IMG/VR virus record: IMGVR_UViG_3300037313_002205
Coordinates: 1 to 58,470 of that record
Reading direction: 5' to 3' (one strand)
Source: a virus
Taxonomy: Duplodnaviria; Caudoviricetes
Length of the DNA: 58,470 nt
A program made the position numbers and the translations under genes. The notes under the pieces are model-generated. The model was not told the DNA's origin, made no database searches, and worked only from the letters and a program-made list of their open reading frames with translations. This document shows, piece after piece, positions 2,138-56,406 of the stretch. Position 1 is the first letter of the stretch. Each line of letters starts with the position of its first letter.

Positions 2138-4570
2138 TCACGCTTTTGAAGTGGCCCGGCGCACAACCACCTTCGACGGTTGCTCATAGCTATAGGCTAC
2201 TTTGCCGCCGTAATTGCCTTGCAGAATTTGGATTGCTCCGTCTGATCTGACCACTCCCGTTGCAACCCCGACGTGACCACCGACTTCGCCAGCGGCATGC
2301 CCGTTCGGCAGCACGACGACGTCGCCCTGTTGCACGTTTGCGGTATCAACCGCCTGCCCCCAATTCATAAATCCAGTGGCGACATTTGAACCGCTGCCTT
2401 GAATTCCTTGGGATTGCAAGACCGCGTTGGTGTAACCAGCACACCAATTGTTCTTGGTTGGATCGAAGCCGCTATCGTTTTTCTGGATAAAATCCTTGGC
2501 ATCGGCGGCTGTTGAGCCCACCGGCGGCGATCCAGGCGGCGTCCAACCGGCACCAGCATTGGTCGCGGCCGGCGTGCCCGGCGCGCCTTGTTGGGATGCT
2601 CCAGGCCGCGAACAGGGGGCGGGCAAGCCCTGCTGTTCGGCATAGGCGGCAGCCTTGCTGTCGGCCTTGGTCGAAAGATTTTGCACAACCTGCGAGACGG
2701 TTTTGCCTTGGAAGATCGTCGGATTGGCGGCTGCCTGGGCCGGGAACATCGTCGATGCATCAGCGTCTGGTGACGTCTGTGCCGCTTTGAGCAACTGCGG
2801 CCCGCCGCCCTGCCCCATAAAATGCATAATGTAGAGTTGCCCCGGCGTCGGGTTGGCAATGCCCTGCTTCTGCAAGATGTCGCTATTGTTTTTTATAAAC
2901 TGGGCACCCATCAGCGCATTGGCGTTGGGGTCGTAGATCGCGTTCGGGTCAGTCGATACGTTGTAGAGATTGCCGTATTGCGTGACCATGCCGTTCCAGG
3001 TCGAACTGGTGAACTGATACAGACCCTTGGCCGAACTTGTGCTGGCGCCGACACCCGCCTGATGACTGGACTCGATATCACTGAATGCTAGCATCGTCGA
3101 TAACGGCACCCCGACCTTATCCGATGCCGCCGAGATCGCGTTGAAGTTCTGGGTAGAGATCGGCTTCGTATTGGCTGCCCCGAAGCTACAGCCGGTGTCC
3201 ATCAATTCGCCGTTGGGACCGACGTTGGAGGCATTGCCCGAGCCTTGCGGTCCGGCAGTGGGCGGCGGTCCGTCTTCGATCGGTGGTGGCGGAACTTTGC
3301 TGTTTGGATGGCCACCCCACGGTTCGTGTGTCGGCAGGCGACTGACAATCGTATTGATGCGTCCGGCGCCATATTTCCATGTCGGCGTGCCGCCCGAACC
3401 GGTGGTGGCTGTGTTCAGCGCATTGACACCTTGTGGCCCGACGGCATCGGCCGCCGACGCTTCGGGGGCGCCGTTGCAATTATCAAAAATCTTCGAACCG
3501 GCGCGAATTTGCTTGCCCGCTGCGTTCATGCTCATGTCGCCGCCGCTTTGCAAGCGGACAGCGCTGGCTGCTTTTGCTTGCAGATTGCCGCCGACATTGA
3601 TTGAGCCATCTTTAGCGGCCGACAAGACAAGATTGCCGCCAGCCCCGATCTGAATATCTTTTCCGGCCTGCATAGTGATCTGCGAGCCCGCCCGCATAAA
3701 GATATTGGCGTTGGCATCGAAGATGATGTTGCGGTCGGCGCGAACATTAAAATCCTGCTCGGCGTGCATACTGATCGAGGCAGAGGTATAAACATCCACG
3801 CCGGCGTCGGAAATCTCTAGCCAGCTATTGCCGTTTTTCGAGTTCATATAGACGTAGCCGGTGGTCTCATGAATCAAGATTTGCGCACCACCGCGCGTAC
3901 GCAGGCGGATAAACTCATTTTCCGTGTCGTCGTCGATGTGCACCGTATTACCACGCGGCGACAGCACACCGAACACCTGCGATGGCGCTTCCCGCCGGGC
4001 CGAGGTCGAAGCCGATCCGCGTTCGAGATCAGAGGTTAGACCCTCGGCGGCAAGCCCGTTCGATAATGGCAAGAAGCGCGGCCGTAGCGGATGCTCGACG
4101 CTGCCAACATTGCCTTTGTTGTATTCAACCACCGGCCCGGTCTTGATCGGCGGGGACGGATCGGTGGTTGCATTGATCGCAACGCCGGGAACCATATGGT
4201 TCATGTACTGTTGGTAACAGCAGGCAAACCAATATCCCCGAGAGATATCGCCGTTGGCGAAGAACACCGCGACTTCATTATTCAGGTCCGGCGGCACCAT
4301 CCAGAACCCATACGACTGCTGCGAGCCGTCCATTGTGACGCTGCTCGGGTTGATCTTCGACGGGTCGGTGGCACCGGCGAAGGGCGAGGCGTAGCTGACG
4401 ATGATCCACGAAGCCGGGTCTGCGGCATCGCCACCGAACTCCGGGATGAACACCGATAGCCGCCCCATGCGTTGGACGTCCTCGTTCCGTTTGACAAAGC
4501 CGATGTAGATCGACAGCGGCATTTTGCGGGGATTGACCCGAAAAGCCTCGGGGAGTTTATTGGCTGGCAT
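2138..4570 (-). CDS. Baseplate central spike (gp5-like): OB-fold, beta-helix, lytic transglycosylase and NlpC/P60-CHAP-like domains
   Basis: D..RMGRLSVFIP, YGFWMVPPDLNNEVAVFF OB-fold; IESS..SSAKGLYQFT SLT motif; WCAGY..GHVG..GNYG amidase motif. Confidence 0.85.
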   Translation of the reverse strand: MPANKLPEAFRVNPRKMPLSIYIGFVKRNEDVQRMGRLSVFIPEFGGDAADPASWIIVSYASPFAGATDPSKINPSSVTMDGSQQSYGFWMVPPDLNNEVAVFFANGDISRGYWFACCYQQYMNHMVPGVAINATTDPSPPIKTGPVVEYNKGNVGSVEHPLRPRFLPLSNGLAAEGLTSDLERGSASTSARREAPSQVFGVLSPRGNTVHIDDDTENEFIRLRTRGGAQILIHETTGYVYMNSKNGNSWLEISDAGVDVYTSASISMHAEQDFNVRADRNIIFDANANIFMRAGSQITMQAGKDIQIGAGGNLVLSAAKDGSINVGGNLQAKAASAVRLQSGGDMSMNAAGKQIRAGSKIFDNCNGAPEASAADAVGPQGVNALNTATTGSGGTPTWKYGAGRINTIVSRLPTHEPWGGHPNSKVPPPPIEDGPPPTAGPQGSGNASNVGPNGELMDTGCSFGAANTKPISTQNFNAISAASDKVGVPLSTMLAFSDIESSHQAGVGASTSSAKGLYQFTSSTWNGMVTQYGNLYNVSTDPNAIYDPNANALMGAQFIKNNSDILQKQGIANPTPGQLYIMHFMGQGGGPQLLKAAQTSPDADASTMFPAQAAANPTIFQGKTVSQVVQNLSTKADSKAAAYAEQQGLPAPCSRPGASQQGAPGTPAATNAGAGWTPPGSPPVGSTAADAKDFIQKNDSGFDPTKNNWCAGYTNAVLQSQGIQGSGSNVATGFMNWGQAVDTANVQQGDVVVLPNGHAAGEVGGHVGVATGVVRSDGAIQILQGNYGGKVAYSYEQPSKVVVRRATSKA

Positions 4571-8656: not shown

Positions 8657-10486
8657 ATGCAGCAGAAGGTAAAGTATATCACCAACAAGGACCTGTTGGC
8701 CGAGATCAAGGTATGCAAGGCGAGTTTCTGTGCGTTTGCAGCGCCGGAATATGCCAGTTACGACATCATCGTCGAGCATGAGGACATGATCACCGCCAGT
8801 TTGTTGGCAGAAGTATTGGCGGAGAAGGCTGGGCCGGTAGCCGCAGATACAGTGGTTTTCCGCGTCATGACCGACGCCCATCTGCCGCCGATCGACGACA
8901 AGTACAAACGCCGGCGAACGATTGAGGGTCAATTAGCGAAGACTAATTTTACGCCGTTCCGACACTTTATCGTCCGTGATGGCCAACTGATAGAAGTAGG
9001 GCGCTCTCACTGGCTCGGTGACTTCGAGAACGGCGGCTTTTACGTGGCGCACGGAAAGATTTCCGACCGACTGGCACGAATGTTTATGTTATTAGTTGAA
9101 CAATATGCCCGCAGGGGTAATTGGAGAGGCTATTGTGTGGATGCTCAGACGGAGGCACTGACGCAGCGCGGGTGGCTGACCGGCGATGAGATCAATGAAA
9201 GCGACATGATCCTGTCGTATGATGCCTCTGATGGGAAAATGAAGTGGTCGCGCATCAAATCGATTTACCGTGGTGATTACGATGGAAAGATGTTCAAGCT
9301 GGACGTCGTGGGGATGGACGCTTTGGTAACACCGGGCCACAAGTTCATTACGAGCAAAGGATTGAAGGAAGTTGATTACCTAATCGATAAGGATCGCGTT
9401 ATTCTCATGGGCGACCCTGTTGAGGGTGGTCCTGGAACCTATAGTAATGCATTTGTCGAACTAGTAGGGTGGACCGTGACGGAGGGCAATTACTACGAGG
9501 CGCCAGATCGCAATTACACACGCCTCACGGTCTATCAGAATGAAGGTCCGAACGCTGCTCGGATCAGGAACTGCATCAGCACTTTAGGAGGAACCGCTGG
9601 TGAAACTGAGAAGCTGCTAGAAACCGGCAACATCAACATCGGTTTTACGTTGTCGAAGGAAATATGCGAGCAGATCGTGAGTGTAGCTCCTGGCCGTATT
9701 ATGTCCATGCCATTCCTGTTGTCGTTGACCGAGTCCCAGCGCGAACTGCTGATCGATACGATGGTGAGCGCGGACGGATGTCGGACGAAACTATTCGGTG
9801 AAAATCTAAAGTATGGCGGCTACCGGCGTTTCAACCAAAAAGAGAAGCCCGCTCTGGATGCGTTCTTGGCTCTATGCACGATGAACGGCCACCGGACATC
9901 AACTCACCATCGAGAGATTGTCTCGTACGGAAAGCCAACGACGATCAATGTTGTGAATATTTTTTCCAGACGTGACCGCTGTCGCGCCTCGATGATGGAA
10001 AATGTTGATCTACACGGCGGAAAACGCAATGGACGCTCCCATCCAGGGCGTGGGAAGTTGGCGCACCCAAACCAACCAACGTTCGACTATAAGGGTCGCG
10101 TATGGTGCCCAGAAACTGAGTATGGTTCCTTCATGGCTCGACGGAATGGAACAATCTACCTCACGGGCAACAGTTACAATGACGAAATGAGAAGCCACGC
10201 TCTTATGCAACTGGCGCAGGTAGGATTGCAGTTTGATGAGTCGCGCAGTGCGAATCCTTTCTCATTTTACACGCAAATAATCAAAAATTGTTTCAGAAGA
10301 ATTTTGAATGTCGAGAAGAGGTCCTCTCAAATACGTGATGACATGCTCATAATGGCCGGAGCTATGCCGAGCCACACACGTCAAGTAGAAAATGAATTAG
10401 ATCAGCGGGATCAACTGGCATCGCCAGAAAAGGCGGGCAAGCGCGGGCGAAAGCCGAAAAATATTGCGGATGAACGTGACGATTAA
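8657..10486 (+). CDS. Late-transcription sigma factor (T4 gp55-like), intein-containing
   Basis: KYITNKDLLAEI N-terminus; RGNWRGY|SYNDEM; FDESRSANPFSFYTQIIKNCFRRILNVEK. Confidence 0.9.
   Translation: MQQKVKYITNKDLLAEIKVCKASFCAFAAPEYASYDIIVEHEDMITASLLAEVLAEKAGPVAADTVVFRVMTDAHLPPIDDKYKRRRTIEGQLAKTNFTPFRHFIVRDGQLIEVGRSHWLGDFENGGFYVAHGKISDRLARMFMLLVEQYARRGNWRGYCVDAQTEALTQRGWLTGDEINESDMILSYDASDGKMKWSRIKSIYRGDYDGKMFKLDVVGMDALVTPGHKFITSKGLKEVDYLIDKDRVILMGDPVEGGPGTYSNAFVELVGWTVTEGNYYEAPDRNYTRLTVYQNEGPNAARIRNCISTLGGTAGETEKLLETGNINIGFTLSKEICEQIVSVAPGRIMSMPFLLSLTESQRELLIDTMVSADGCRTKLFGENLKYGGYRRFNQKEKPALDAFLALCTMNGHRTSTHHREIVSYGKPTTINVVNIFSRRDRCRASMMENVDLHGGKRNGRSHPGRGKLAHPNQPTFDYKGRVWCPETEYGSFMARRNGTIYLTGNSYNDEMRSHALMQLAQVGLQFDESRSANPFSFYTQIIKNCFRRILNVEKRSSQIRDDMLIMAGAMPSHTRQVENELDQRDQLASPEKAGKRGRKPKNIADERDD
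9134..10171 (+). mobile_element. Intein (346 aa) with LAGLIDADG endonuclease in gp55
   Basis: Starts CVDAQTEALT, TPGH block B, LVGWTVTEG and MVSADG motifs, ends TGN followed by Ser. Confidence 0.9.
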
Positions 10487-44498: not shown

Positions 44499-44568
44499 TA
44501 TCGCCGTCATAGTTTGACAGGTCCGCCGATCGGAGCAAGGCTGAGCATTCTTAGAAGAGGTCACACTC

Positions 44569-44760
44569 ATGCTAAGATTGGCCCTAGCCGCCGTCGTCAT
44601 CGGGTTGGTGCTATCGAACCTCTTTAGGGCTTATGACAAATGGGGACGCGTACGGCGCTATCGTCGCGGACAGCGCAAGCGGGCAGCAGTCAGAGTGCTG
44701 TGCATTGCCTGGGTCCTCGTCGTCGCCGCTACGGCTTTGCTGCCACTGTTGTTTTGGTAG
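44569..44760 (+). CDS. Small two-TM membrane protein
   Basis: Two hydrophobic segments flanking a basic loop; GAGG SD. Confidence 0.5.
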   Translation: MLRLALAAVVIGLVLSNLFRAYDKWGRVRRYRRGQRKRAAVRVLCIAWVLVVAATALLPLLFW

Positions 44761-44839
44761 ACAAAAACTGTCATAATAAACATATTTCCTTGGCGACGAT
44801 AAATGATTAGCATCCGATGATCTTATACTGGAGATCATC

Positions 44840-45136
44840 ATGAAACAGACGATGCTTGATCGCGCGCGGCAGGACTTTAAGCGGGCGCGCAGTCGCCACG
44901 AGACCTTGCGTCCGCCGCTGCGCGTTGAGGCCGAGCGGCTGCTCCCGGATATCGAAAAGAAGATAGAACGGGCCGCCAAGGCCGAGCAGCCGATGGCGAT
45001 CTATCACGTCGAATCGAAGTATAGCGGCAACATCGACGGACTGATCACCGAGCTAACTGCCGTCCTGGCGGCTGAAGGTCTAACGGTGTCGCCGCAGGGT
45101 GATGGGGTCATTCACATCACCGGCTGGGATAATTAA
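44840..45136 (+). CDS. Hypothetical protein
   Basis: GGAG SD. Confidence 0.55.
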   Translation: MKQTMLDRARQDFKRARSRHETLRPPLRVEAERLLPDIEKKIERAAKAEQPMAIYHVESKYSGNIDGLITELTAVLAAEGLTVSPQGDGVIHITGWDN

Positions 45137-45222
45137 TTTTGCCAGAAGGCTGCGACTCTGATTCTCAATATAATTTAGGCCACAACCTTGCGTAGCCATG
45201 CAGTTGGTCTTAGGCTACCTGC

Positions 45223-45636
45223 ATGGCAGGCAAAGCAGGAACACGGAAGCGTAATAGGACAAAGCGAGTGCGTGAGCAGCCTCCTCGCGATTGGATAACC
45301 TACAGCCAATTAGAGAAGGAGCGACTGCGCGATTTCGTCTATTTTGCGCTGGGCGATCCGAAAATGACGCCTTTTGAGGCTAATTTTATAAACGGCATGA
45401 AGCTTCGGCTCCAGTTTGATCCGATGTATATCTCGCGGAAGCAGACCGCGATCTTGGAGCAGATCAAAGAAAAACTGCATTACAATAATCCTGAGTCGTC
45501 CGACAATGTCGAAACGGACTACCTGGACATGGAAATCGACGAGTATGGCCGCTCGGGTATTGAGGCGAAATACGATAACGGCTTCGGTGATGATGAAGCA
45601 GACGGTATCGAAATCGTGCGCGAATTGAGGTCGTAG
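45223..45636 (+). CDS. Hypothetical protein (basic N-terminus, acidic C-terminus)
   Basis: MTPFEANFI..M...ISRKQ..IL..I helical motif. Confidence 0.55.
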   Translation: MAGKAGTRKRNRTKRVREQPPRDWITYSQLEKERLRDFVYFALGDPKMTPFEANFINGMKLRLQFDPMYISRKQTAILEQIKEKLHYNNPESSDNVETDYLDMEIDEYGRSGIEAKYDNGFGDDEADGIEIVRELRS

Positions 45637-45673
45637 GGTTGGCTGCTTCGAGCTAACGATGAAGCACGCTGGA

Positions 45674-45757
45674 TGGTGGACCGGAACCGAATTTGCACGG
45701 TTACAGCTTGCGCGGGGAATTTACAGTTCCTTGGGTTCACTCGTACCCAGCCGGTCC
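45674..45757 (-). tRNA. tRNA-Tyr(GTA), atypical
   Basis: Acceptor GGACCGG/CCGGTCC, anticodon loop CTGTAAA, long variable arm, encoded ACCA. Confidence 0.75.
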
Positions 45758-45765
45758 ATGAGAAG

Positions 45766-45841
45766 TGGTGCCAGGGGCAGGACTTCAACCTGCGACACGT
45801 GCCGTTTCGGGGCACTGTTCTAGCAACTGAACTACCCTGGC
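45766..45841 (-). tRNA. tRNA-Phe(GAA), atypical
   Basis: 76-nt cloverleaf GCCAGGG/CCCTGGC; anticodon loop CCGAAAC; encoded ACCA. Confidence 0.8.
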
Positions 45842-45868
45842 ATAGAAAATGGGTTGAATTTTAGTGCT

Positions 45869-45944
45869 TGGCATGGGTGGAGAGACTCGAACTCCCGACC
45901 GACCCGTTTGGAGCGGGTTGCTCTACCAACTGAGCTACACCCAT
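45869..45944 (-). tRNA. tRNA-Trp(CCA)
   Basis: Canonical 76-nt cloverleaf; loop CTCCAAA; TTCGAGT T-loop; encoded GCCA. Confidence 0.93.
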
Positions 45945-45955
45945 ATGCGGTGGGC

Positions 45956-45992
45956 AATAAAAATCCCCGCTCGGCGCGCTGCCAGCGGGGAT
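45956..45992 (-). terminator. Intrinsic terminator (putative attenuator) upstream of the tRNA cluster
   Basis: ATCCCCGCT...AGCGGGGAT followed by TTTTATT, 11 nt before tRNA-Trp. Confidence 0.75.
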
Positions 45993-46019
45993 ATTCAGAT
46001 CAGATGGTCTGGAGACGAC

Positions 46020-46121
46020 CTAGATCGTCTCCCCACCATCAGCATCCGCCCAGCCGGCTACCGCGCCGAAAAGATATCGGACGGTAAATCGCCAGCGCAG
46101 AGGGGGGCGGTTCGTGATCAT
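46020..46121 (-). CDS. Putative leader peptide MITNRPPLRWRFTVRYLFGAVAGWADADGGETI
   Basis: ATG 5 nt after the promoter box; W, F, Y, F, W codons; stop lies inside a hairpin upstream of the terminator. Confidence 0.65.
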   Translation of the reverse strand: MITNRPPLRWRFTVRYLFGAVAGWADADGGETI

Positions 46122-46126
46122 GGGTT

Positions 46127-46157
46127 TATTTAGCACAAACCCCCCGTTGGGCGTCAA
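46127..46157 (-). promoter_or_regulatory. Overlapping sigma70-type (TTGACG-N17-GCTAAAT) and late (TAAATA) promoter
   Basis: Sequence TTGACG..GTGCTAAATAAACCCATG. Confidence 0.65.
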
Positions 46158-46165
46158 GCAGTTTC

Positions 46166-47833
46166 TCACTGGCCTACGGGTTTTATGCTCCCAAAGACGC
46201 CATGCTTTTCGTCGGCCAACCCTGCGGTGAAGTATAGCTGCGCCGGATCACCGGCCGCCCCGCCACTACCCGGCGTAATTGCCCACAGGTCCTGATTGAC
46301 CAGCGGCTTCCCGTCGCTGCCGCTGATTTGCCCAAGGAATTTGTGGGTTGTAAAATCAAACGCATTGATGGTGCCGTCGCCAAAGTTTCCGACCAATAAC
46401 GCATTGGCAAACGCGCCAAAGCTGCTCGGTGCGACGGTCAAGCCCCATGGCGCATTCAGTGACCCACCGGCGGCGACAAGCCCGACGTGATTGCCGTTCA
46501 GATCATACTGATCGACAACGCCTTGCGCCGGGCCGACACCACGGTTCAATGGTGCAAGGCTGACGAATAGCTGATTGTTCAGCACCTGCACGCCGTAAGG
46601 CGTGAATCCGGACGGGATTTCCGGGTTGGAAATGCTTTTTATAAGTTTGAAGTTGCTGTCGTACATATCGATGGTCTGGTTTTTGAAGTTGGCCGCGTAG
46701 AGCGTCGGTCCACTGGCGCTCGAACCGATCGCTAAACCGGTGTAGACGGCGTTCGAATTGGTCACCGCAACAGCGGCCTGTGTGCCAAGTGCTTGATTCC
46801 ATCCGGTAATTTGACCGGTGGTGGACGCAAAAATGAAAGTCGCCGGTTGTCCGTTAGGAAGCGTGAAGGCTTTAGAACTCGCAAAGTTGTTGAACACCTG
46901 ACCCGTAGGTGATGGTGTTGAGACGGGCGGGATAACATTAAGATTGATAGTGGATTGTCCAGTCGCTCCAGCCGGAGAGGTCGTTACCGAATCGACGCTA
47001 GTGAAATTTGTGCCCTGATCGGAAATCCAAAACGGGGTCGTGCTTGAGAAAGAGATGCCCCACGGATTGATCAGATTTGGATCGGTGACAGCGGCAGTTA
47101 CGGACCCGTCTGAGATGAGGTTCGTCTGGATAAACTGTGGTCCGCCCGGCGTCTGTAGGTTTCCCGGAGTGATGGACGTGGAACCGTTGGTCGATGTGCC
47201 GTTTGTGGATGTTCCGTTCGTCGATGTTCCAGGAGTGACGCCAGTAGGGCCTACGCTGCCTCCAGTCGCGCTTCCACCTGTTCCACTACCACCGGTCGCC
47301 GAGCCGCCTGTGGCCGTCCCTCCCGTGGCCGTTCCGGCGGTCGCCGTTCCTGCTGTCGCTGTGCCCGCTGTTGCAGTGCCGCTTCCTCCAGTGACCGTTC
47401 CGGCCGTTGCTGTACCCGGAGTGGACGTCCCAGGGGTCACGCCATTCGGGCCGACGCTTCCGCCAGTCGCACTGCCACCCGTTGCTGATCCACCTGTGGC
47501 CGTCCCAGACGTGCCCGCCCCGCCTGTTGCTGTGCCCGGCGTTATAGCGGTAGGACCGACACTGCTACCGATCGCACTGCCGCCGGTTCCACTGCCACCT
47601 GTCGCGCTTCCGCCAGTTGCTGTCCCACCGGTGGCTGTTCCGGCTGTAGCGGTACCTGCTGTAGCGGTCCCAGGGGTTGCGCTGCCGGGAGTACCGTTTC
47701 CGCCGATGACCGTTCCGGCCGTCGCTGTGCCGGGCGTGGACGTCCCAGGCGTCACGCCGTTTGGACCCACGCTTCCGCCAGTCGCACTGCCGCCAGTCGC
47801 ACTGCCGCCAGTCGCTGTAACTGTGCCGCTCAT
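46166..47833 (-). CDS. TIGR03118-like protein with N-terminal Gly/Thr/Ala/Ser pentapeptide repeats
   Basis: QTNLISDG..DPNLINPWGI..PFWISD.GT; LNAPWGL; LLVGNFGDGTINAFD; LYFTAG..EKHG.FG; AGGAG SD. Confidence 0.85.
   Translation of the reverse strand: MSGTVTATGGSATGGSATGGSVGPNGVTPGTSTPGTATAGTVIGGNGTPGSATPGTATAGTATAGTATGGTATGGSATGGSGTGGSAIGSSVGPTAITPGTATGGAGTSGTATGGSATGGSATGGSVGPNGVTPGTSTPGTATAGTVTGGSGTATAGTATAGTATAGTATGGTATGGSATGGSGTGGSATGGSVGPTGVTPGTSTNGTSTNGTSTNGSTSITPGNLQTPGGPQFIQTNLISDGSVTAAVTDPNLINPWGISFSSTTPFWISDQGTNFTSVDSVTTSPAGATGQSTINLNVIPPVSTPSPTGQVFNNFASSKAFTLPNGQPATFIFASTTGQITGWNQALGTQAAVAVTNSNAVYTGLAIGSSASGPTLYAANFKNQTIDMYDSNFKLIKSISNPEIPSGFTPYGVQVLNNQLFVSLAPLNRGVGPAQGVVDQYDLNGNHVGLVAAGGSLNAPWGLTVAPSSFGAFANALLVGNFGDGTINAFDFTTHKFLGQISGSDGKPLVNQDLWAITPGSGGAAGDPAQLYFTAGLADEKHGVFGSIKPVGQ
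47170..47825 (-). repeat. Coding 15-bp/pentapeptide repeat array with higher-order duplication
   Basis: GSATG/GTATA/GTSTP units; block ATGGSVGPNGVTPGTSTPGTATAGTV occurs twice. Confidence 0.85.
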
Positions 47834-47956
47834 TGCACTTCTCCTGTTGGTGGAAAGCACTTACGGATGGATTAACGATTCCACGGAGGCGCCGGTTGCT
47901 CCCCGGCCTGACAGGCTGCCACTTATCGATACAGGAGGCAACCTCGGGGTGGCTGA

Positions 47957-54897: not shown

Positions 54898-55146
54898 CGC
54901 ATGTCTCTCCAAGGGCCGGATACCGAAGCGACAAAGCCGCGTCAACCGATTTCTATTTGTTTTTACACCTTGGCGCACTGTTTTGCGTCAGCAATGTTAA
55001 ATATTCCCGAGAAGCAAGGCTTCTGGAACGAATTTCAGGCCGTAGTACGGAACTAGTTATAATTATGCCTTTACCTATCGCCATTTTCCGGAAGCACGGC
55101 ACTCATCTCTACCAAGAGATAGAAATTACAAAGGAGATTGGCCTTG

Positions 55147-56406
55147 ATGGATAATTCCATTTCCAAGATTCTTGGCGAAGAGACGCTCCCCAAGGAGTTG
55201 GTCGCTTCGCTTCAAGAAGCATTTGATAAAAAGGTCGAGGAAGTCCGCGAACAAGCAGAAATGACTGTGCGCGAAGAGTTCGCTCGACGTTATGAAACCG
55301 ACAAAGAGAACCTCGTCGAAGCAATCGACCGCATGCTGACCGACACGATCGGCAAGCAGGAAGAGGAAAAGGCGCAGGTGATCGCAAAGTTCACCGAAGC
55401 ACGCACCGCCTTCCGCAAGGCGATCAAGGAATCCCGCAAGGTATTCAAGGACAAGCTGGCCGAGAACACGGATGCCGCGCGCACCGTCGTCACCGCCAAG
55501 CTGAAGGATGAGGTGTTGAAGCTGCGTGAGCAGCGCAAGGCGCTGCTTGCTGAGCAAATGGCCTATGCCGACAAGCTGGAAGAGGCGAAGGCATCGCTGG
55601 CCACCGAGCAAAAGGCGCGATTCAAGAAGATCGACGAATTCGTCGTCAAGCAGGTCGAGAAGGAAATGCAAGAATTCCTTGTTGATCATAAGGCGCTCAT
55701 CAACACCCGTCTCAAGCTGGTGACTGAGGGCAAGCAGCGTCTGCAAGCCACGCAGAAGCGGTTCGTGAAAGAGGCGGCGATCAAGGTCGAGAAGCACATC
55801 AACGAGACGCTGAAGCGCGAGATGGCGCAACTGCACGAGGACCTGGAGAAGAACCGGCAGAACATGTTCGGTCGGCGCATCTTCGAGGCGGTCGCGGCAG
55901 AATATATGACGTCGTATTTGGCCGAGGGCACCGAGGTGCGCAAGCTCCAGCACGTCCTGGAAGCGCGCGAGCAGGAACTGGCTGCCGCCAAGACCAAGTT
56001 GGATGAGGCCACCAAGGAAAGCCAGATTGTCGCCCGCAAGGCGCGGCTGGCTGAGGATCGTGCCGCTCGTACCAAGGTGATGGGCGAACTGCTCATGAAC
56101 CTGCGCGGCGAGAAGCGCTCGATCATGGAGGGCATGCTGGAGACGGTGAAGACCGACGCTCTGCGCGCCACATTCAACAAGCTGCTGCCTGTTGTTCTCG
56201 ACGAGAACCACGGCAAGCCGTCGGCCAAGCGCCCGCTGCGCGAAGCTAGTCAGCAACAGCCCGCCAAGCCCGTGCAGCAGTCGTCGGTCGTGACCGGCAA
56301 CCAGCGCGCCAACCGGCTGGCCGAAGCTGTTGAGGAAGAGCGGACGACTACTGACAACGATCCCGACATCGCGCAGGTTCTGCGCCTCGCCGGTATCACG
56401 AAGTAA
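55147..56406 (+). CDS. Prohead scaffold protein (T4 gp22-like)
   Basis: Long charged coiled coil; FGRRIFEA; directly upstream of the capsid gene; start may be the TTG at 55138 or 55144. Confidence 0.85.
   Translation: MDNSISKILGEETLPKELVASLQEAFDKKVEEVREQAEMTVREEFARRYETDKENLVEAIDRMLTDTIGKQEEEKAQVIAKFTEARTAFRKAIKESRKVFKDKLAENTDAARTVVTAKLKDEVLKLREQRKALLAEQMAYADKLEEAKASLATEQKARFKKIDEFVVKQVEKEMQEFLVDHKALINTRLKLVTEGKQRLQATQKRFVKEAAIKVEKHINETLKREMAQLHEDLEKNRQNMFGRRIFEAVAAEYMTSYLAEGTEVRKLQHVLEAREQELAAAKTKLDEATKESQIVARKARLAEDRAARTKVMGELLMNLRGEKRSIMEGMLETVKTDALRATFNKLLPVVLDENHGKPSAKRPLREASQQQPAKPVQQSSVVTGNQRANRLAEAVEEERTTTDNDPDIAQVLRLAGITK

What the first reader, a model, noticed from the sequence alone, without database searches (positions are those of the whole stretch)
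45674..46157. Putative ribosome-dependent attenuator controlling a Trp-Phe-Tyr phage tRNA operon
Seen on the minus strand, in order: a promoter (TTGACG-N17-GCTAAAT overlapping the late box TAAATA); an apparently leaderless 33-codon ORF (46121-46020) containing W10, F12, Y16, F18 and W24; an intrinsic terminator (45992-45956); then, 11 nt later, tRNA-Trp, -Phe and -Tyr. These tRNAs read exactly the aromatic codons of the leader. Leader codons 27-31 (GCTGATGGTGGGGA, 46043-46030) can pair with the terminator 5' arm and loop (TCCCCGCTGGCAGC, 45991-45978) as an antiterminator. A competing hairpin (46040-46003) encloses the stop codon. Established: trp/phe attenuators use this logic for biosynthesis and synthetase operons. 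Inference: the phage senses ribosome stalling on aromatic codons (starvation or host tRNA-cleaving defence) and makes replacement tRNAs on demand. I do not know of a described phage tRNA attenuator.
Basis: partly seen in the sequence, partly recalled or inferred. Interest (0 to 1): 0.92.

Follow-up and report, generated by a model that had tools for sequence, protein, structure and literature searches.

The report
Leader-peptide attenuator gating phage tRNAs
A giant soil phage places a tiny translated "test" gene and a transcription stop signal in front of its Trp, Phe and Tyr tRNA genes, and related phages do the same with test genes spelled in the codons of whichever tRNAs follow, so the phage probably makes these tRNAs only when ribosomes read those codons slowly.

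Summary
The third tRNA is non-canonical: ARAGORN and Rfam miss it, but compensatory changes support its cloverleaf.

The window's leader alone is weak evidence: 5 of 32 codons are aromatic (p=0.08).

- The window is a fragment of a T4-like jumbo phage.
- Two relatives carry homologous leaders that begin MIT-R, with the same promoter-to-ATG geometry and a terminator just before tRNA-Trp.
- Their codons change with the tRNA cargo. FFCCW-Y precedes Trp-Phe-Tyr-Cys. SS-SYSSSSYW precedes Trp-Ser-Ser-Tyr-Ser-Ser-Arg.
- Other clusters in four relatives show the same pattern: TTRTTTT before Thr x3, NRNNSNN before Asn x2, HQHSHH before His.
- Swapping tRNA sets among the 13 promoter-defined leaders never reached the observed match (0 of 20,000).

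In folds with a ribosome footprint masked, the terminator is lost only with the A site at codons 5-14, most strongly at R9-W10-R11-F12.

Function is inferred; no RNA data cover the leader. Seven full-text searches found no published description. This scan has logged the same design on other phage DNA.

The parts
46152..46157 (-). -35 element TTGACG of the leader promoter
   Evidence: Read. The same TTGAC(G/A/T)-N17-19-(-10)-N5-8-ATG geometry precedes 13 leaderless ORFs upstream of tRNA clusters in 6 phage records. It aligns with G008 and G007.
46127..46133 (-). -10 element CTAAAT/TAAATA; also an instance of the window's CTAAATA motif
   Evidence: The motif occurs 9 times in the window (3.5 expected). 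Eight of the 9 lie 4-29 nt upstream of an ORF start on the same strand. Four of them, this one included, lie 4-5 nt before an ATG.
46020..46121 (-). Leaderless 33-codon leader ORF MITNRPPLRWRFTVRYLFGAVAGWADADGGETI plus TAG
   Evidence: Homologous ORFs are MITSRFFCCWRYLSGAYAGGEIMANAEGVI in G008 and MITIRNSSRSYSSSSYWAMRAAARIEETGR in G007.
46068..46094 (-). Block of cognate codons: W10 (46094-46092), F12 (46088-46086), Y16 (46076-46074), F18 (46070-46068). W24 lies apart at 46052-46050.
   Evidence: One search gives the codons. In masked folds the terminator is lost only with the A site at codons 5-14, and the gap is 4.3-4.4 kcal/mol at codons 9-12.
46046..46110 (-). Hairpin P1: 5' arm 46110-46077 pairs with 3' arm 46069-46046. 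In untranslated RNA it holds the antiterminator's 5' arm.
   Evidence: Minimum-free-energy folds.
45966..46074 (-). Predicted antiterminator: 46074-46042 pairs with 46001-45966, which is the terminator's 5' arm, its loop and most of its 3' arm. It encloses hairpin 46040-46003.
   Evidence: This is the minimum-free-energy fold when a 30-nt footprint is masked at codons 5-14. Of 150 dinucleotide shuffles with the terminator fixed, 5 reach a gap of 4 kcal/mol and 0 do so at 4 or more codon positions.
46003..46040 (-).
   Evidence: A similar hairpin around ATCTAG is present in G008.
45956..45992 (-). Intrinsic terminator: stem 45991-45964 and U-tract 45963-45956
   Evidence: -20.8 kcal/mol. Terminators at the same place in G008 and G007 lie 19 and 15 nt from stem end to tRNA.
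45869..45944 (-). tRNA-Trp (CCA)
   Evidence: ARAGORN. Rfam RF00005 67.2 bits.
45766..45841 (-). tRNA-Phe (GAA), with unusual D and T loops
   Evidence: ARAGORN. Rfam RF00005 58.3 bits.
45674..45757 (-). Non-canonical tRNA-Tyr(GUA)-like gene with an 8-nt T loop and encoded CCA
   Evidence: Not called by ARAGORN or Rfam. Cloverleaf fold. Seven of 20 pairs are compensatory against the Brevundimonas phage copy.

Best explanation
The stretch 46157-45956 is a ribosome-mediated (leader-peptide) transcription attenuator that gates the tRNA-Trp, tRNA-Phe and tRNA-Tyr-like operon of a T4-like jumbo phage.

Proposed sequence of events:
1. A -35/-10 promoter starts the RNA at or next to the ATG, so the 33-codon ORF is translated without a leader.
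2. If no ribosome is on the RNA, or the ribosome runs through the ORF, hairpin P1 and the stop-codon hairpin form, or the ribosome covers codons 16 onward. The terminator hairpin then forms 11 nt before tRNA-Trp and transcription stops.
3. If the ribosome lingers with its A site around codons 9-12 (R-W-R-F), because charged tRNA-Trp or tRNA-Phe is scarce, it covers the 5' arm of P1. The segment 46074-42 is then free to pair with the terminator sequence. RNA polymerase reads on into the tRNA genes, and RNase P would cut them out.

The result is feedback: the phage makes these tRNAs when decoding of their codons is slow.

Shown here: the elements, their conservation, and the co-variation of leader codons with tRNA cargo across related phages.
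Inferred: translation of the ORF, the direction of the switch, the exact antiterminator, and the physiological trigger.
For: 1. Context. The window is a T4-like jumbo phage fragment. PHROGs finds portal, major head, baseplate hub and a late sigma factor. The major head protein is 76% identical to that of Sinorhizobium phage Phosso, 469 kb.

2. Homologous leaders.
- G008: TTGACA-N18-TTTAAT-N6-ATGATCAC, ORF MITSRFFCCWRYLSGAYAGGEIMANAEGVI, then a terminator, then Trp-Phe-Tyr-Cys. The sequence is identical in two metagenome contigs.
- G007: MITIRNSSRSYSSSSYWAMR..., then a terminator, then Trp-Ser-Ser-Tyr-Ser-Ser-Arg.
- Cys, Ser and Phe codons appear or vanish with the matching tRNA genes.

3. The same design at other clusters:
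- MSNTPTTTRRDERDTTTR before Asp-Glu-Glu-Thr
- MNRMTTRTTTTIA before Thr x3
- MMNRNNSNNIEGHA before Asn x2
- MKNFSHQHSHHT... before His
- MNKNVTTTVVIITTV... before Ile, then Thr x3 and Val
- ...SSHSYCYSSSYHS... before Ser x3-Cys-Tyr x2-His
- ...LYPMPCYP... before Tyr-Pro-Leu-Pro-Met-Cys
- MHPHRTLRLT, with two TTA codons, before Leu(CAA)-Leu(TAA)

4. Statistics.
- In the 13 promoter-defined leaders, 87 of 308 residues are cognate, against 35.3 expected. Of 20,000 permutations of the tRNA sets, 0 reach 87.
- In a promoter-blind best-ORF scan of 80 clusters, 9 score 3 or more. Under 200 permutations the mean is 1.5 and the maximum 5. The antisense control gives 0.

5. Terminators. Thirteen of 18 curated leaders have a hairpin plus U-run before the first tRNA. 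In 10 of those 13 the stop codon lies 26-34 nt before the terminator.

6. The window's switch. The terminator is lost only with the A site at codons 5-14, most strongly at codons 9-12. Five of 150 shuffles reach that gap, and 0 of 150 reach its breadth.

7. No room for a separate strong promoter. Only 11 nt separate the U-tract from tRNA-Trp.
Against: - The window's own ORF is only weakly enriched: 5 of 32, p=0.083. Three of its five aromatic codons (Y16, F18, W24) lie where the folds keep the terminator.
- The folds are thermodynamic only, with an assumed 30-nt footprint, and the energy gaps are small (0-5 kcal/mol).
- Across 13 leaders with terminators, 2 never lose the terminator under any mask. 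In 3, the unmasked fold already lacks it.
- Complementarity of the upstream RNA to the terminator's 5' arm beats shuffles only modestly. Mean z is -0.99, 1 of 13 is below -2, and 3 of 13 are positive.
- Five of 18 curated leaders have no recognisable intrinsic terminator.
- The cultured relatives show no such leaders. In Phosso, 1 of 16 clusters scores 2 or more, and that is a Ser-only set, a kind that also scored in the downstream control. In Atu_ph07, 0 of 10 do. The most distant record, G005, has 1 of 23.
- The downstream-flank control gave 5 of 80 at score 3 or more; four of the five are Ser-containing sets.
- A strict-wobble codon match is only slightly above expectation: 120 of 149 against 112.9.
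- No RNA evidence exists for this leader.
Confidence: 0.72

Rival explanations
1. The codon-matched leader ORF is translated and does sense decoding of those codons, but it acts by another route than the intrinsic terminator/antiterminator switch modelled here. Candidates are Rho-dependent termination on ribosome-free RNA, ribosome-dependent protection or processing of the precursor, or the opposite sign (smooth translation opens the way).
For: Five of 18 curated leaders have no hairpin plus U-run before the tRNA. Mask-dependent gaps are small and absent in 2 of 13. The antiterminator complementarity is weak, with mean z -0.99. In G008's Trp leader the unmasked fold is already antiterminated, and the terminator appears only once the A site passes codon 10.
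Against: Thirteen of 18 leaders do carry a clear terminator placed 7-125 nt before the first tRNA, and 10 of those 13 have a constant 26-34 nt from stop codon to terminator. In the window, the mask window that removes the terminator is centred on W10 and F12 and is rare among shuffles.
Confidence: 0.17
2. Nothing regulatory is here. The ORF is a chance or ordinary small gene, or the RNA is a structured small RNA or 3' UTR. The terminator simply ends the upstream 564-codon gene's transcript. The tRNAs are made by leak-through or from a weak promoter overlapping the terminator (CTGGCA-N17-TTTTAT, 8 of 12, read by eye).
For: The window's ORF alone is not significantly aromatic (p=0.083). No terminator lies between the upstream gene's stop (46166) and 45992. 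A GTG at 46169, overlapping that stop, opens the same frame as a 49-codon ORF. Homologues of the upstream gene in two other phage contigs are not followed by tRNAs.
Against: The ORF start, frame and stop-codon hairpin are conserved in G008 and G007, while the codons change with the tRNA cargo. Zero of 20,000 permutations reach the observed codon-to-tRNA match. The CTGGCA-N17-TTTTAT site is below the scan's threshold and was not reported.
Confidence: 0.06
3. The leader RNA senses tRNAs directly, T-box style. Its in-frame codons pair with anticodons of uncharged tRNAs, without translation.
For: The regulated products are tRNAs, and the leader holds codons complementary to their anticodons.
Against: No T-box or other riboswitch family matches, even at E<=10. 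The cognate codons lie in one reading frame that starts at an ATG placed 5-8 nt after a -10 element and ends at a stop codon, in 13 of 13 promoter-defined leaders. Up to seven tRNA species per leader would have to dock.
Confidence: 0.03

Closest known systems
Enterobacterial leader-peptide attenuators of amino-acid operons and of pheST (trpL, pheL, pheM, hisL, leuL). Named from general knowledge; for pheL only the abstract of PMC3082878 was seen, in the listing.
   Same: A short ORF at the 5' end of the transcript is rich in the codons of the amino acid concerned. An intrinsic terminator lies before the regulated genes. An alternative pairing competes with the terminator, and its formation depends on where the ribosome sits.
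   Different: The regulated genes are tRNA genes, not biosynthetic or synthetase genes, so the loop closes on tRNA supply itself. The ORF is leaderless. The element is phage-borne. The window's own leader has scattered cognate codons rather than a tandem run.
Multivalent attenuators (thrL for Thr and Ile; ilvL and ivbL for Ile, Leu, Val). Recalled; no paper read here.
   Same: One leader peptide mixes codons of several amino acids and so integrates several signals, as the W/F/Y, F/C/W/Y and S/Y/W/R leaders do.
   Different: There the mix reflects a shared biosynthetic pathway. Here it mirrors the list of tRNA genes downstream and changes when that list changes.
T-box riboswitches (Rfam RF00230)
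   Same: They use terminator/antiterminator control that responds to the state of a specific tRNA.
   Different: T-boxes bind the tRNA directly through a specifier codon and the T-box bulge, need no translation, and control synthetase or amino-acid genes in Gram-positive bacteria. No T-box match was found here.
The phage T4 tRNA cluster (recalled: eight tRNAs and two small stable RNAs processed from long precursors)
   Same: It is a T4-like phage carrying a tRNA operon whose members must be cut from a precursor.
   Different: No leader peptide or attenuator is known to me for T4's cluster. Here a codon-matched ORF and a terminator stand directly in front of the first tRNA.

Membership tests
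Leader-peptide (ribosome-mediated) transcription attenuator | Short ORF at the 5' end of the same transcript as the regulated genes | tested here: met
   The promoter-like -35/-10 is followed 5-6 nt later by an ATG, then a 33-codon ORF on the strand of the tRNAs. The geometry is shared by 13 leaders. The transcript itself was not observed.
Leader-peptide (ribosome-mediated) transcription attenuator | ORF enriched in codons tied to the regulated genes | tested here: met
   At family level, 87 of 308 residues are cognate against 35.3 expected, and 0 of 20,000 permutations reach that. For the window's ORF alone, 5 of 32, p=0.083.
Leader-peptide (ribosome-mediated) transcription attenuator | Intrinsic terminator between the ORF and the regulated genes | tested here: met
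   Stem 45991-45964 at -20.8 kcal/mol plus UUUUUAUU, 11 nt before tRNA-Trp. Thirteen of 18 curated leaders have one.
Leader-peptide (ribosome-mediated) transcription attenuator | Mutually exclusive antiterminator whose formation depends on ribosome position at the regulatory codons | tested here: inconclusive
   In the window, masked folds lose the terminator at codons 5-14, with a maximum gap of 4.4 kcal/mol at codons 9-12. Five of 150 shuffles reach the gap and 0 of 150 its breadth. Across 13 leaders the effect is small, and it is absent in 2. The calculation is thermodynamic only.
Leader-peptide (ribosome-mediated) transcription attenuator | Read-through rises when the cognate charged tRNA is limiting and depends on translation of the ORF | not testable with these tools
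   The RNA contigs of the two metatranscriptome runs laid did not cover the leader.
Leader-peptide (ribosome-mediated) transcription attenuator | Regulated genes are amino-acid biosynthetic or aminoacyl-tRNA synthetase genes (all classical members) | tested here: not met
   The downstream genes are tRNA-Trp, tRNA-Phe and a tRNA-Tyr-like gene. Hence this is a new variant, not a plain member.
T-box riboswitch (RF00230) | Match to the T-box covariance model (Stem I specifier loop, T-box antiterminator bulge) | tested here: not met
   No T-box match at the gathering score or at E<=10 on 45600-46250.
tRNA (RF00005), for the third gene 45757-45674 | Score above threshold with tRNA models | tested here: not met
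   Absent from the ARAGORN output and from Rfam at E<=10.
tRNA (RF00005), for the third gene 45757-45674 | Cloverleaf kept by compensatory change, 7-nt anticodon loop with U33 and a purine at 37, 3' CCA | tested here: met
   Cloverleaf. Thirty-nine of 40 cells pair, and 7 of 20 pairs change on both sides. Loop CUGUAAA and CCA are read. The T loop is 8 nt and the D loop lacks GG.

The most novel reading that the evidence does not exclude
Giant phages run a modular "codon checklist" control. Each block of tRNA genes is gated by its own leader peptide, written in the codons that block decodes. The phage thus senses, codon family by codon family, when host decoding capacity fails, whether through host shut-off, codon mismatch or anticodon-nuclease defence, and it switches on only the matching replacement tRNAs. 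The checklist is rewritten by evolution whenever the tRNA cargo changes. That would be the first attenuation system whose output is the sensed molecule itself.
Probability: 0.6. Interest if true: 0.92.

Novelty: new variant of a known kind. Interest (0 to 1): 0.88.

Why it matters
Why phages carry tRNAs, and how they decide when to make them, are open questions. Current explanations are codon-usage compensation, replacement of host tRNAs degraded during infection, and escape from tRNA-cleaving defences.

A codon-matched attenuator in front of each tRNA block would show three things:
- The phage measures decoding speed directly and answers with the matching tRNAs.
- There is a sequence signature (leader peptide composition) from which the intended function of a tRNA block can be read.
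- A textbook bacterial mechanism extends to a new class of target genes.

It is directly testable with reporter fusions or defined in vitro transcription-translation. It could also serve as a compact sensor of the availability of a specific tRNA.

Tried and rejected
Searches for close homologues of the leader that found nothing useful:
- blastn of 45600-46250 against 50,697 phage records hit only tRNA parts and the Tyr-like element.
- Homologues of the upstream 564-codon gene in IMG/VR (3 loci) carry no tRNAs. Their records match only the gene's end.
- The downstream 137-codon gene has no relative in IMG/VR.
- Phosso, Atu_ph07 and Papperlapapp match only generic tRNA stretches.
- The Tyr-like core pattern gave 0 hits in viral and metagenome contigs.
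- The Trp-to-Phe D-arm pattern gave 0 hits in viral contigs.
- The 49-codon form of the ORF has no relative among proteins of 26-86 residues. Other lengths were not searched.

Pattern scans that did return hits:
- The promoter-to-ATG pattern found G008 plus 2 unrelated AT-rich contigs without tRNAs.
- The ATG-to-Trp pattern in metagenome contigs gave 7 loci. Two are identical to G008 and 5 are unrelated bacterial or phage tRNA arrays.

Reads:
- The RNA contigs of two metatranscriptome runs lay only on the upstream gene, at 46336-47021, with 0-4 differences. The other short pieces, those at tRNA-Trp included, carry 3-7 differences and mostly run on into unlike sequence.
- Nothing lay on the leader, so this says nothing about expression.
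- Two DNA runs carried one difference in the leader: 46103 G>A on the + strand, which changes Pro7 to Ser in an unpaired stretch. That is too little variation for a conservation test.

Other checks:
- No copy of the leader elsewhere in the window.
- RNAalifold on the three MIT-R leaders recovers the terminator and local hairpins, but three sequences cannot decide between the alternative folds.
- Cultured relatives show no convincing leaders: Phosso, 16 clusters; Atu_ph07, 10 clusters.
- I considered and dropped a reading of the terminator as bidirectional, because there is no T-run on the + strand.
- I dropped a repeat or mobile-element origin.

Rows not analysed: of 28 related loci, I took whole records only for the 5 largest contigs (152-608 kb). 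The other 23 were scanned only for tRNAs inside the fetched stretch.

Supplementary files of papers were not opened. The statement that nothing is in print rests on 7 full-text searches and on passages of one review.
Full report
**1. What is at the site**

- TTGACG at 46157-46152.
- A -10-like CTAAAT/TAAATA at 46133-46127.
- ATG at 46121, opening a 33-codon ORF, MITNRPPLRWRFTVRYLFGAVAGWADADGGETI, that ends with TAG at 46022-46020.
- A hairpin plus UUUUUAUU at 45992-45956. Its stem folds at -20.8 kcal/mol.
- tRNA-Trp(CCA) at 45944-45869, 11 nt after the U-tract, and tRNA-Phe(GAA) at 45841-45766.

The simple consensus scans reported neither the promoter nor the terminator. The 186 nt from 46130 to 45945 fold at -86.7 kcal/mol, z = -4.88, and 0 of 200 shuffles are as stable.

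**2. The third tRNA**

ARAGORN does not call it. Rfam does not call it even at E<=10. The stretch 45757-45674 nevertheless folds as a cloverleaf with anticodon loop CUGUAAA, an 8-nt T loop and an encoded CCA.

An 89-nt stretch that is 82% identical lies unannotated just upstream of a Val-Ile-Val-Gln-Asn tRNA cluster in Brevundimonas jumbo phage Papperlapapp; four other Brevundimonas jumbo phage records match at 81-82%, and their surroundings were not examined. Between the window and Papperlapapp, 39 of 40 cells of my cloverleaf pair and 7 of 20 pairs change on both sides. Three of 500 shuffles do as well.

I therefore accept it as a conserved, non-canonical tRNA-Tyr(GUA)-like gene.

**3. Context**

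- The record is an IMG/VR "provirus" of 58,470 bases with a CheckV completeness of 14%.
- PHROGs finds a portal, major head protein, baseplate hub and lysozyme, tape measure, SbcCD-like nuclease and a late sigma factor.
- The major head protein is 76% identical to that of Sinorhizobium phage Phosso (469 kb) and 65% identical to that of Agrobacterium phage Atu_ph07 (490 kb).
- So this is a fragment of a T4-like jumbo phage, probably of an alphaproteobacterium.
- CTAAATA occurs 9 times (3.5 expected). Eight of the 9 lie 4-29 nt upstream of an ORF start on the same strand. Four lie 4-5 nt before an ATG: the DNA methylase gene, two other ORFs and the leader ORF.
- The leader's ATG is therefore placed as in apparently leaderless genes of this phage.

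**4. The window's leader on its own**

Aromatic codons are 5 of 32, against a background of 0.074, p=0.083. Alone, the ORF proves nothing.

**5. Homologues**

Close homologues were hard to find (see Tried and rejected). A scaffold-like head protein (55138-56406) brought 28 related IMG/VR loci. I searched the whole records of the five largest contigs.

G008 (152 kb, 63% identity in that protein) holds Trp-Phe-Tyr-Cys, preceded by three elements:
- TTGACA-N18-TTTAAT-N6-ATGATCAC.
- The ORF MITSRFFCCWRYLSGAYAGGEIMANAEGVI, ending ATCTAG as in the window.
- A terminator, ACCCAC..GTGGGUUUUUUG, whose stem ends 19 nt before tRNA-Trp (U-tract included); the window's spacing is also 19 nt.

The same sequence is in two metagenome contigs.

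G007 (191 kb) has TTGCAC-N17/18-TATAAAT-N6-ATGATCACG. Its ORF is MITIRNSSRSYSSSSYWAMRAAARIEETGR. A terminator follows, and then Trp-Ser-Ser-Tyr-Ser-Ser-Arg.

| Codons in leader | Window | G008 | G007 | tRNA genes downstream |
|---|---|---|---|---|
| Cys | 0 | 2 | 0 | absent / present / absent |
| Phe | 2 | 2 | 0 | present / present / absent |
| Ser | 0 | 2 | 8 | 0 / 0 / 4 |

Trp and Tyr codons and their tRNAs are present in all three.

**6. The design is general in this phage group**

I fetched G004 (578 kb), G005 (524 kb), G006 (608 kb), G007 and G008 whole and called tRNAs with ARAGORN. The counts are 69, 59, 57, 20 and 12, plus 2 in the window. Grouped at gaps of 200 nt or less, they form 80 clusters with standard identities.

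The pattern TTGACN-N16-19-TNNN[AT]N-N5-8-ATG within 350 nt upstream of a cluster gives 13 ORFs of 8 or more codons. Among them:

| Record | tRNA cluster | Leader peptide |
|---|---|---|
| G004 | Thr x3 | MNRMTTRTTTTIA |
| G004 | Arg(UCU) | MNIRANNVLRRRR (AGA and AGG included) |
| G006 | Asn x2 | MMNRNNSNNIEGHA |
| G006 | His | MKNFSHQHSHHT... |
| G006 | Ile, then Thr x3 and Val | MNKNVTTTVVIITTV... |
| G006 | Asp-Glu x3 | ...ASDEREEDIFSR |
| G006 | Phe-Leu-Trp-Arg-Arg-Lys-Lys | ...LFNKRFWRRVR... |
| G008 | Asp-Glu-Glu-Thr | MSNTPTTTRRDERDTTTR |
| G008 | Val-Met | ...GIVVRVVRMRHRHVV |

In these 13, 87 of 308 residues are cognate, against 35.3 expected from proteome composition. Permuting the tRNA sets among the 13 gives a mean of 32.7 and a maximum of 71, and 0 of 20,000 permutations reach 87.

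A scan that ignores promoters takes the best ATG ORF of 8-60 codons in the 300 nt upstream. It adds leaders that have Shine-Dalgarno-like sites instead:
- ...SSHSYCYSSSYHS... before Ser x3-Cys-Tyr x2-His (16 of 29).
- MTRRLATLRLKTLRLL... before Arg x3-Leu.
- ...LYPMPCYP... before Tyr-Pro-Leu-Pro-Met-Cys.
- MRRQPTGVVVAARMRHRRI before Val-His-Gln-Arg-Met.

In that scan, 9 of 80 clusters score 3 or more. Under 200 permutations the mean is 1.5 and the maximum 5.

**7. Controls and negatives**

- The antisense strand of the same upstream stretches gives 0 of 80 at score 3 or more.
- The downstream flanks give 5 of 80; four of the five are Ser-containing sets (three Ser-only), so Ser is prone to chance hits.
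- By record, clusters scoring 2 or more are: G004 4 of 23, G005 1 of 23, G006 6 of 21, G007 2 of 8, G008 3 of 4, window 0 of 1.
- In Phosso's tRNA region, 1 of 16 clusters scores 2 or more, and that is a Ser-only set. In Atu_ph07, 0 of 10 do. The cultured relatives seem to lack the design.
- Strict-wobble matching of cognate codons to the cluster's anticodons is only slightly above expectation overall: 120 of 149 against 112.9. It is marked for TTA with Leu(UAA) and for AGA/AGG with Arg(UCU).

**8. Structure of the window's leader**

With the RNA starting at the ATG, the unmasked fold has four parts:
- P1, with 46110-46077 pairing with 46069-46046.
- A hairpin around the stop codon, 46040-46003.
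- An outer helix.
- The terminator.

It is -20.6 kcal/mol, or -22.9 with the loop, matched by 5 of 200 shuffles. Forcing it into the whole leader costs 6.3-13.7 kcal/mol.

I then masked a 30-nt footprint codon by codon. The minimum-free-energy fold loses the terminator only with the A site at codons 5-14. The gap over the best terminator-containing fold is 4.3-4.4 kcal/mol at codons 9-12 (R, W, R, F). At every position from codon 15 to the stop, the terminator stays.

In the alternative fold, 46074-46042 pairs with 46001-45966 and encloses the stop-codon hairpin. This gives the classical 1:2, 2:3, 3:4 logic.

With the terminator fixed and the 130 nt upstream of the terminator shuffled 150 times:
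- 140 shuffles keep the terminator when unmasked.
- 28 lose it under some mask by 1 kcal/mol or more.
- 5 lose it by 4 kcal/mol or more.
- 0 do so at four or more codon positions.

**9. Structure across the family**

- Of 18 curated leaders, 13 have a hairpin plus U-run before the first tRNA and 5 do not.
- In 10 of the 13, the stop codon lies 26-34 nt before the terminator.
- Eleven of the 13 lose the terminator at some mask positions, mostly inside or next to the cognate run. Gaps are 0-5 kcal/mol.
- Two never lose it. In 3, the unmasked fold already lacks it.
- The best duplex between the upstream RNA and the terminator's 5' arm beats shuffles only modestly. Mean z is -0.99, 10 of 13 are negative, 1 is below -2, and 3 are positive.
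- The structural part of the model is therefore plausible but not established. Some leaders may use Rho or another route.

**10. Expression data**

Seventeen runs hold part of 44500-47500, and 5 of them are RNA libraries. I laid two RNA runs and two DNA runs. The RNA contigs lay on the upstream gene only. The DNA contigs showed a single difference in the leader, at 46103. There is thus no evidence either way on transcription or termination.

**11. Comparison with what is known**

The logic is that of leader-peptide attenuation (trpL, pheL, hisL, and the multivalent thrL and ilvL; named from general knowledge). The differences are the target (tRNA genes, so the output is the sensed molecule), the phage setting, the leaderless start, and the way the peptide's composition mirrors a list of tRNA genes. 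No T-box or other Rfam family matches.

Seven full-text searches found no paper describing attenuation of tRNA genes by a leader peptide, in phages or elsewhere. For those searches I saw listings and abstracts only, plus passages of one review (PMC9693318), which does not mention it. Supplements were not searched.

This scan's own notebook holds the same reading for other phage DNA: 559 notes with these words in at least 392 genomes, 8 of which I saw. I did not test those.

**12. Verdict**

I correct which antiterminator is favoured, and I note that the window's own leader is the least enriched member of its family.

My confidence that this is a ribosome-mediated attenuator of the tRNA operon is 0.72. 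My confidence that the leader ORFs are codon-matched to their tRNA clusters by selection is well above 0.9.

Noticed in passing
window 1378(-), 8604(-), 13343(+), 24006(-), 29055(+), 46133(-), 48810(-), 54279(-); 26777(-) is the exception: CTAAATA occurs 9 times (3.5 expected). Eight of the 9 lie 4-29 nt upstream of an ORF start on the same strand, in two spacing classes: 4-5 nt (leaderless; the DNA methylase is one) and 24-29 nt (the portal is one). It is probably the phage's late promoter, fitting the gp55-like sigma factor at 8657-10486.
   Followed up: partly
window 45674-45757 (-); L002:707-795 (Brevundimonas phage Papperlapapp): A non-canonical tRNA-Tyr(GUA)-like gene with an 8-nt T loop and no GG in the D loop is shared at 81-82% identity with five Brevundimonas jumbo phage records. 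In the one inspected (Papperlapapp) it lies unannotated next to a tRNA cluster. Standard tRNA finders miss it.
   Followed up: partly
window 45766-45841 (-): tRNA-Phe has GUUGCUA in the D loop and UUGAAGU in the T loop, in place of the usual GG and UUCGAAU, yet scores 58 bits.
   Followed up: no
window 46166-46169 (-): A GTG overlapping the TGA of the upstream 564-codon gene (GTGA) opens the same frame as the leader ORF, giving a 49-codon form. Ribosomes on read-through transcripts from upstream might enter the leader by coupling.
   Followed up: no
window 46166-47860 (-): This 564-codon protein has long Gly/Thr/Ser/Ala repeats and no Pfam match. Its relatives (65-72% identity) in two other phage contigs sit in different neighbourhoods. 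Contigs of two metatranscriptome libraries match it at 0-4 differences.
   Followed up: partly
G004 109999-110155(-), G006 4091-4256(+), G007 71482-71556(-), Phosso L021:18732-18807; G005 190515-190591: Related jumbo phages carry tRNAs with a CUA anticodon (ARAGORN labels them Pyl), often in pairs. One carries a UCA anticodon (labelled SeC). These are possible suppressor tRNAs and a hint of stop-codon reading in this group.
   Followed up: no
L076:8850-8900(-) and L051:1485-1515 (G008); window 45964-45991: Terminators of different leaders share loop sequences: TTGCCAGATCGG, TTGGCAGATCGCC and CTGGCAGCGCGCC. This suggests the leader-terminator modules are paralogous.
   Followed up: no
G004 42262 (Thr x3 leader): Here the Thr codons themselves (ACAACCACCAUC) appear, by eye, complementary to a downstream GAUGGUUAUUGUGGGUUGU followed by UUUCUUGU, so a ribosome on the Thr run would cover that pairing directly; the automatic terminator rule found none here. 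This would be a simpler variant of the switch.
   Followed up: no
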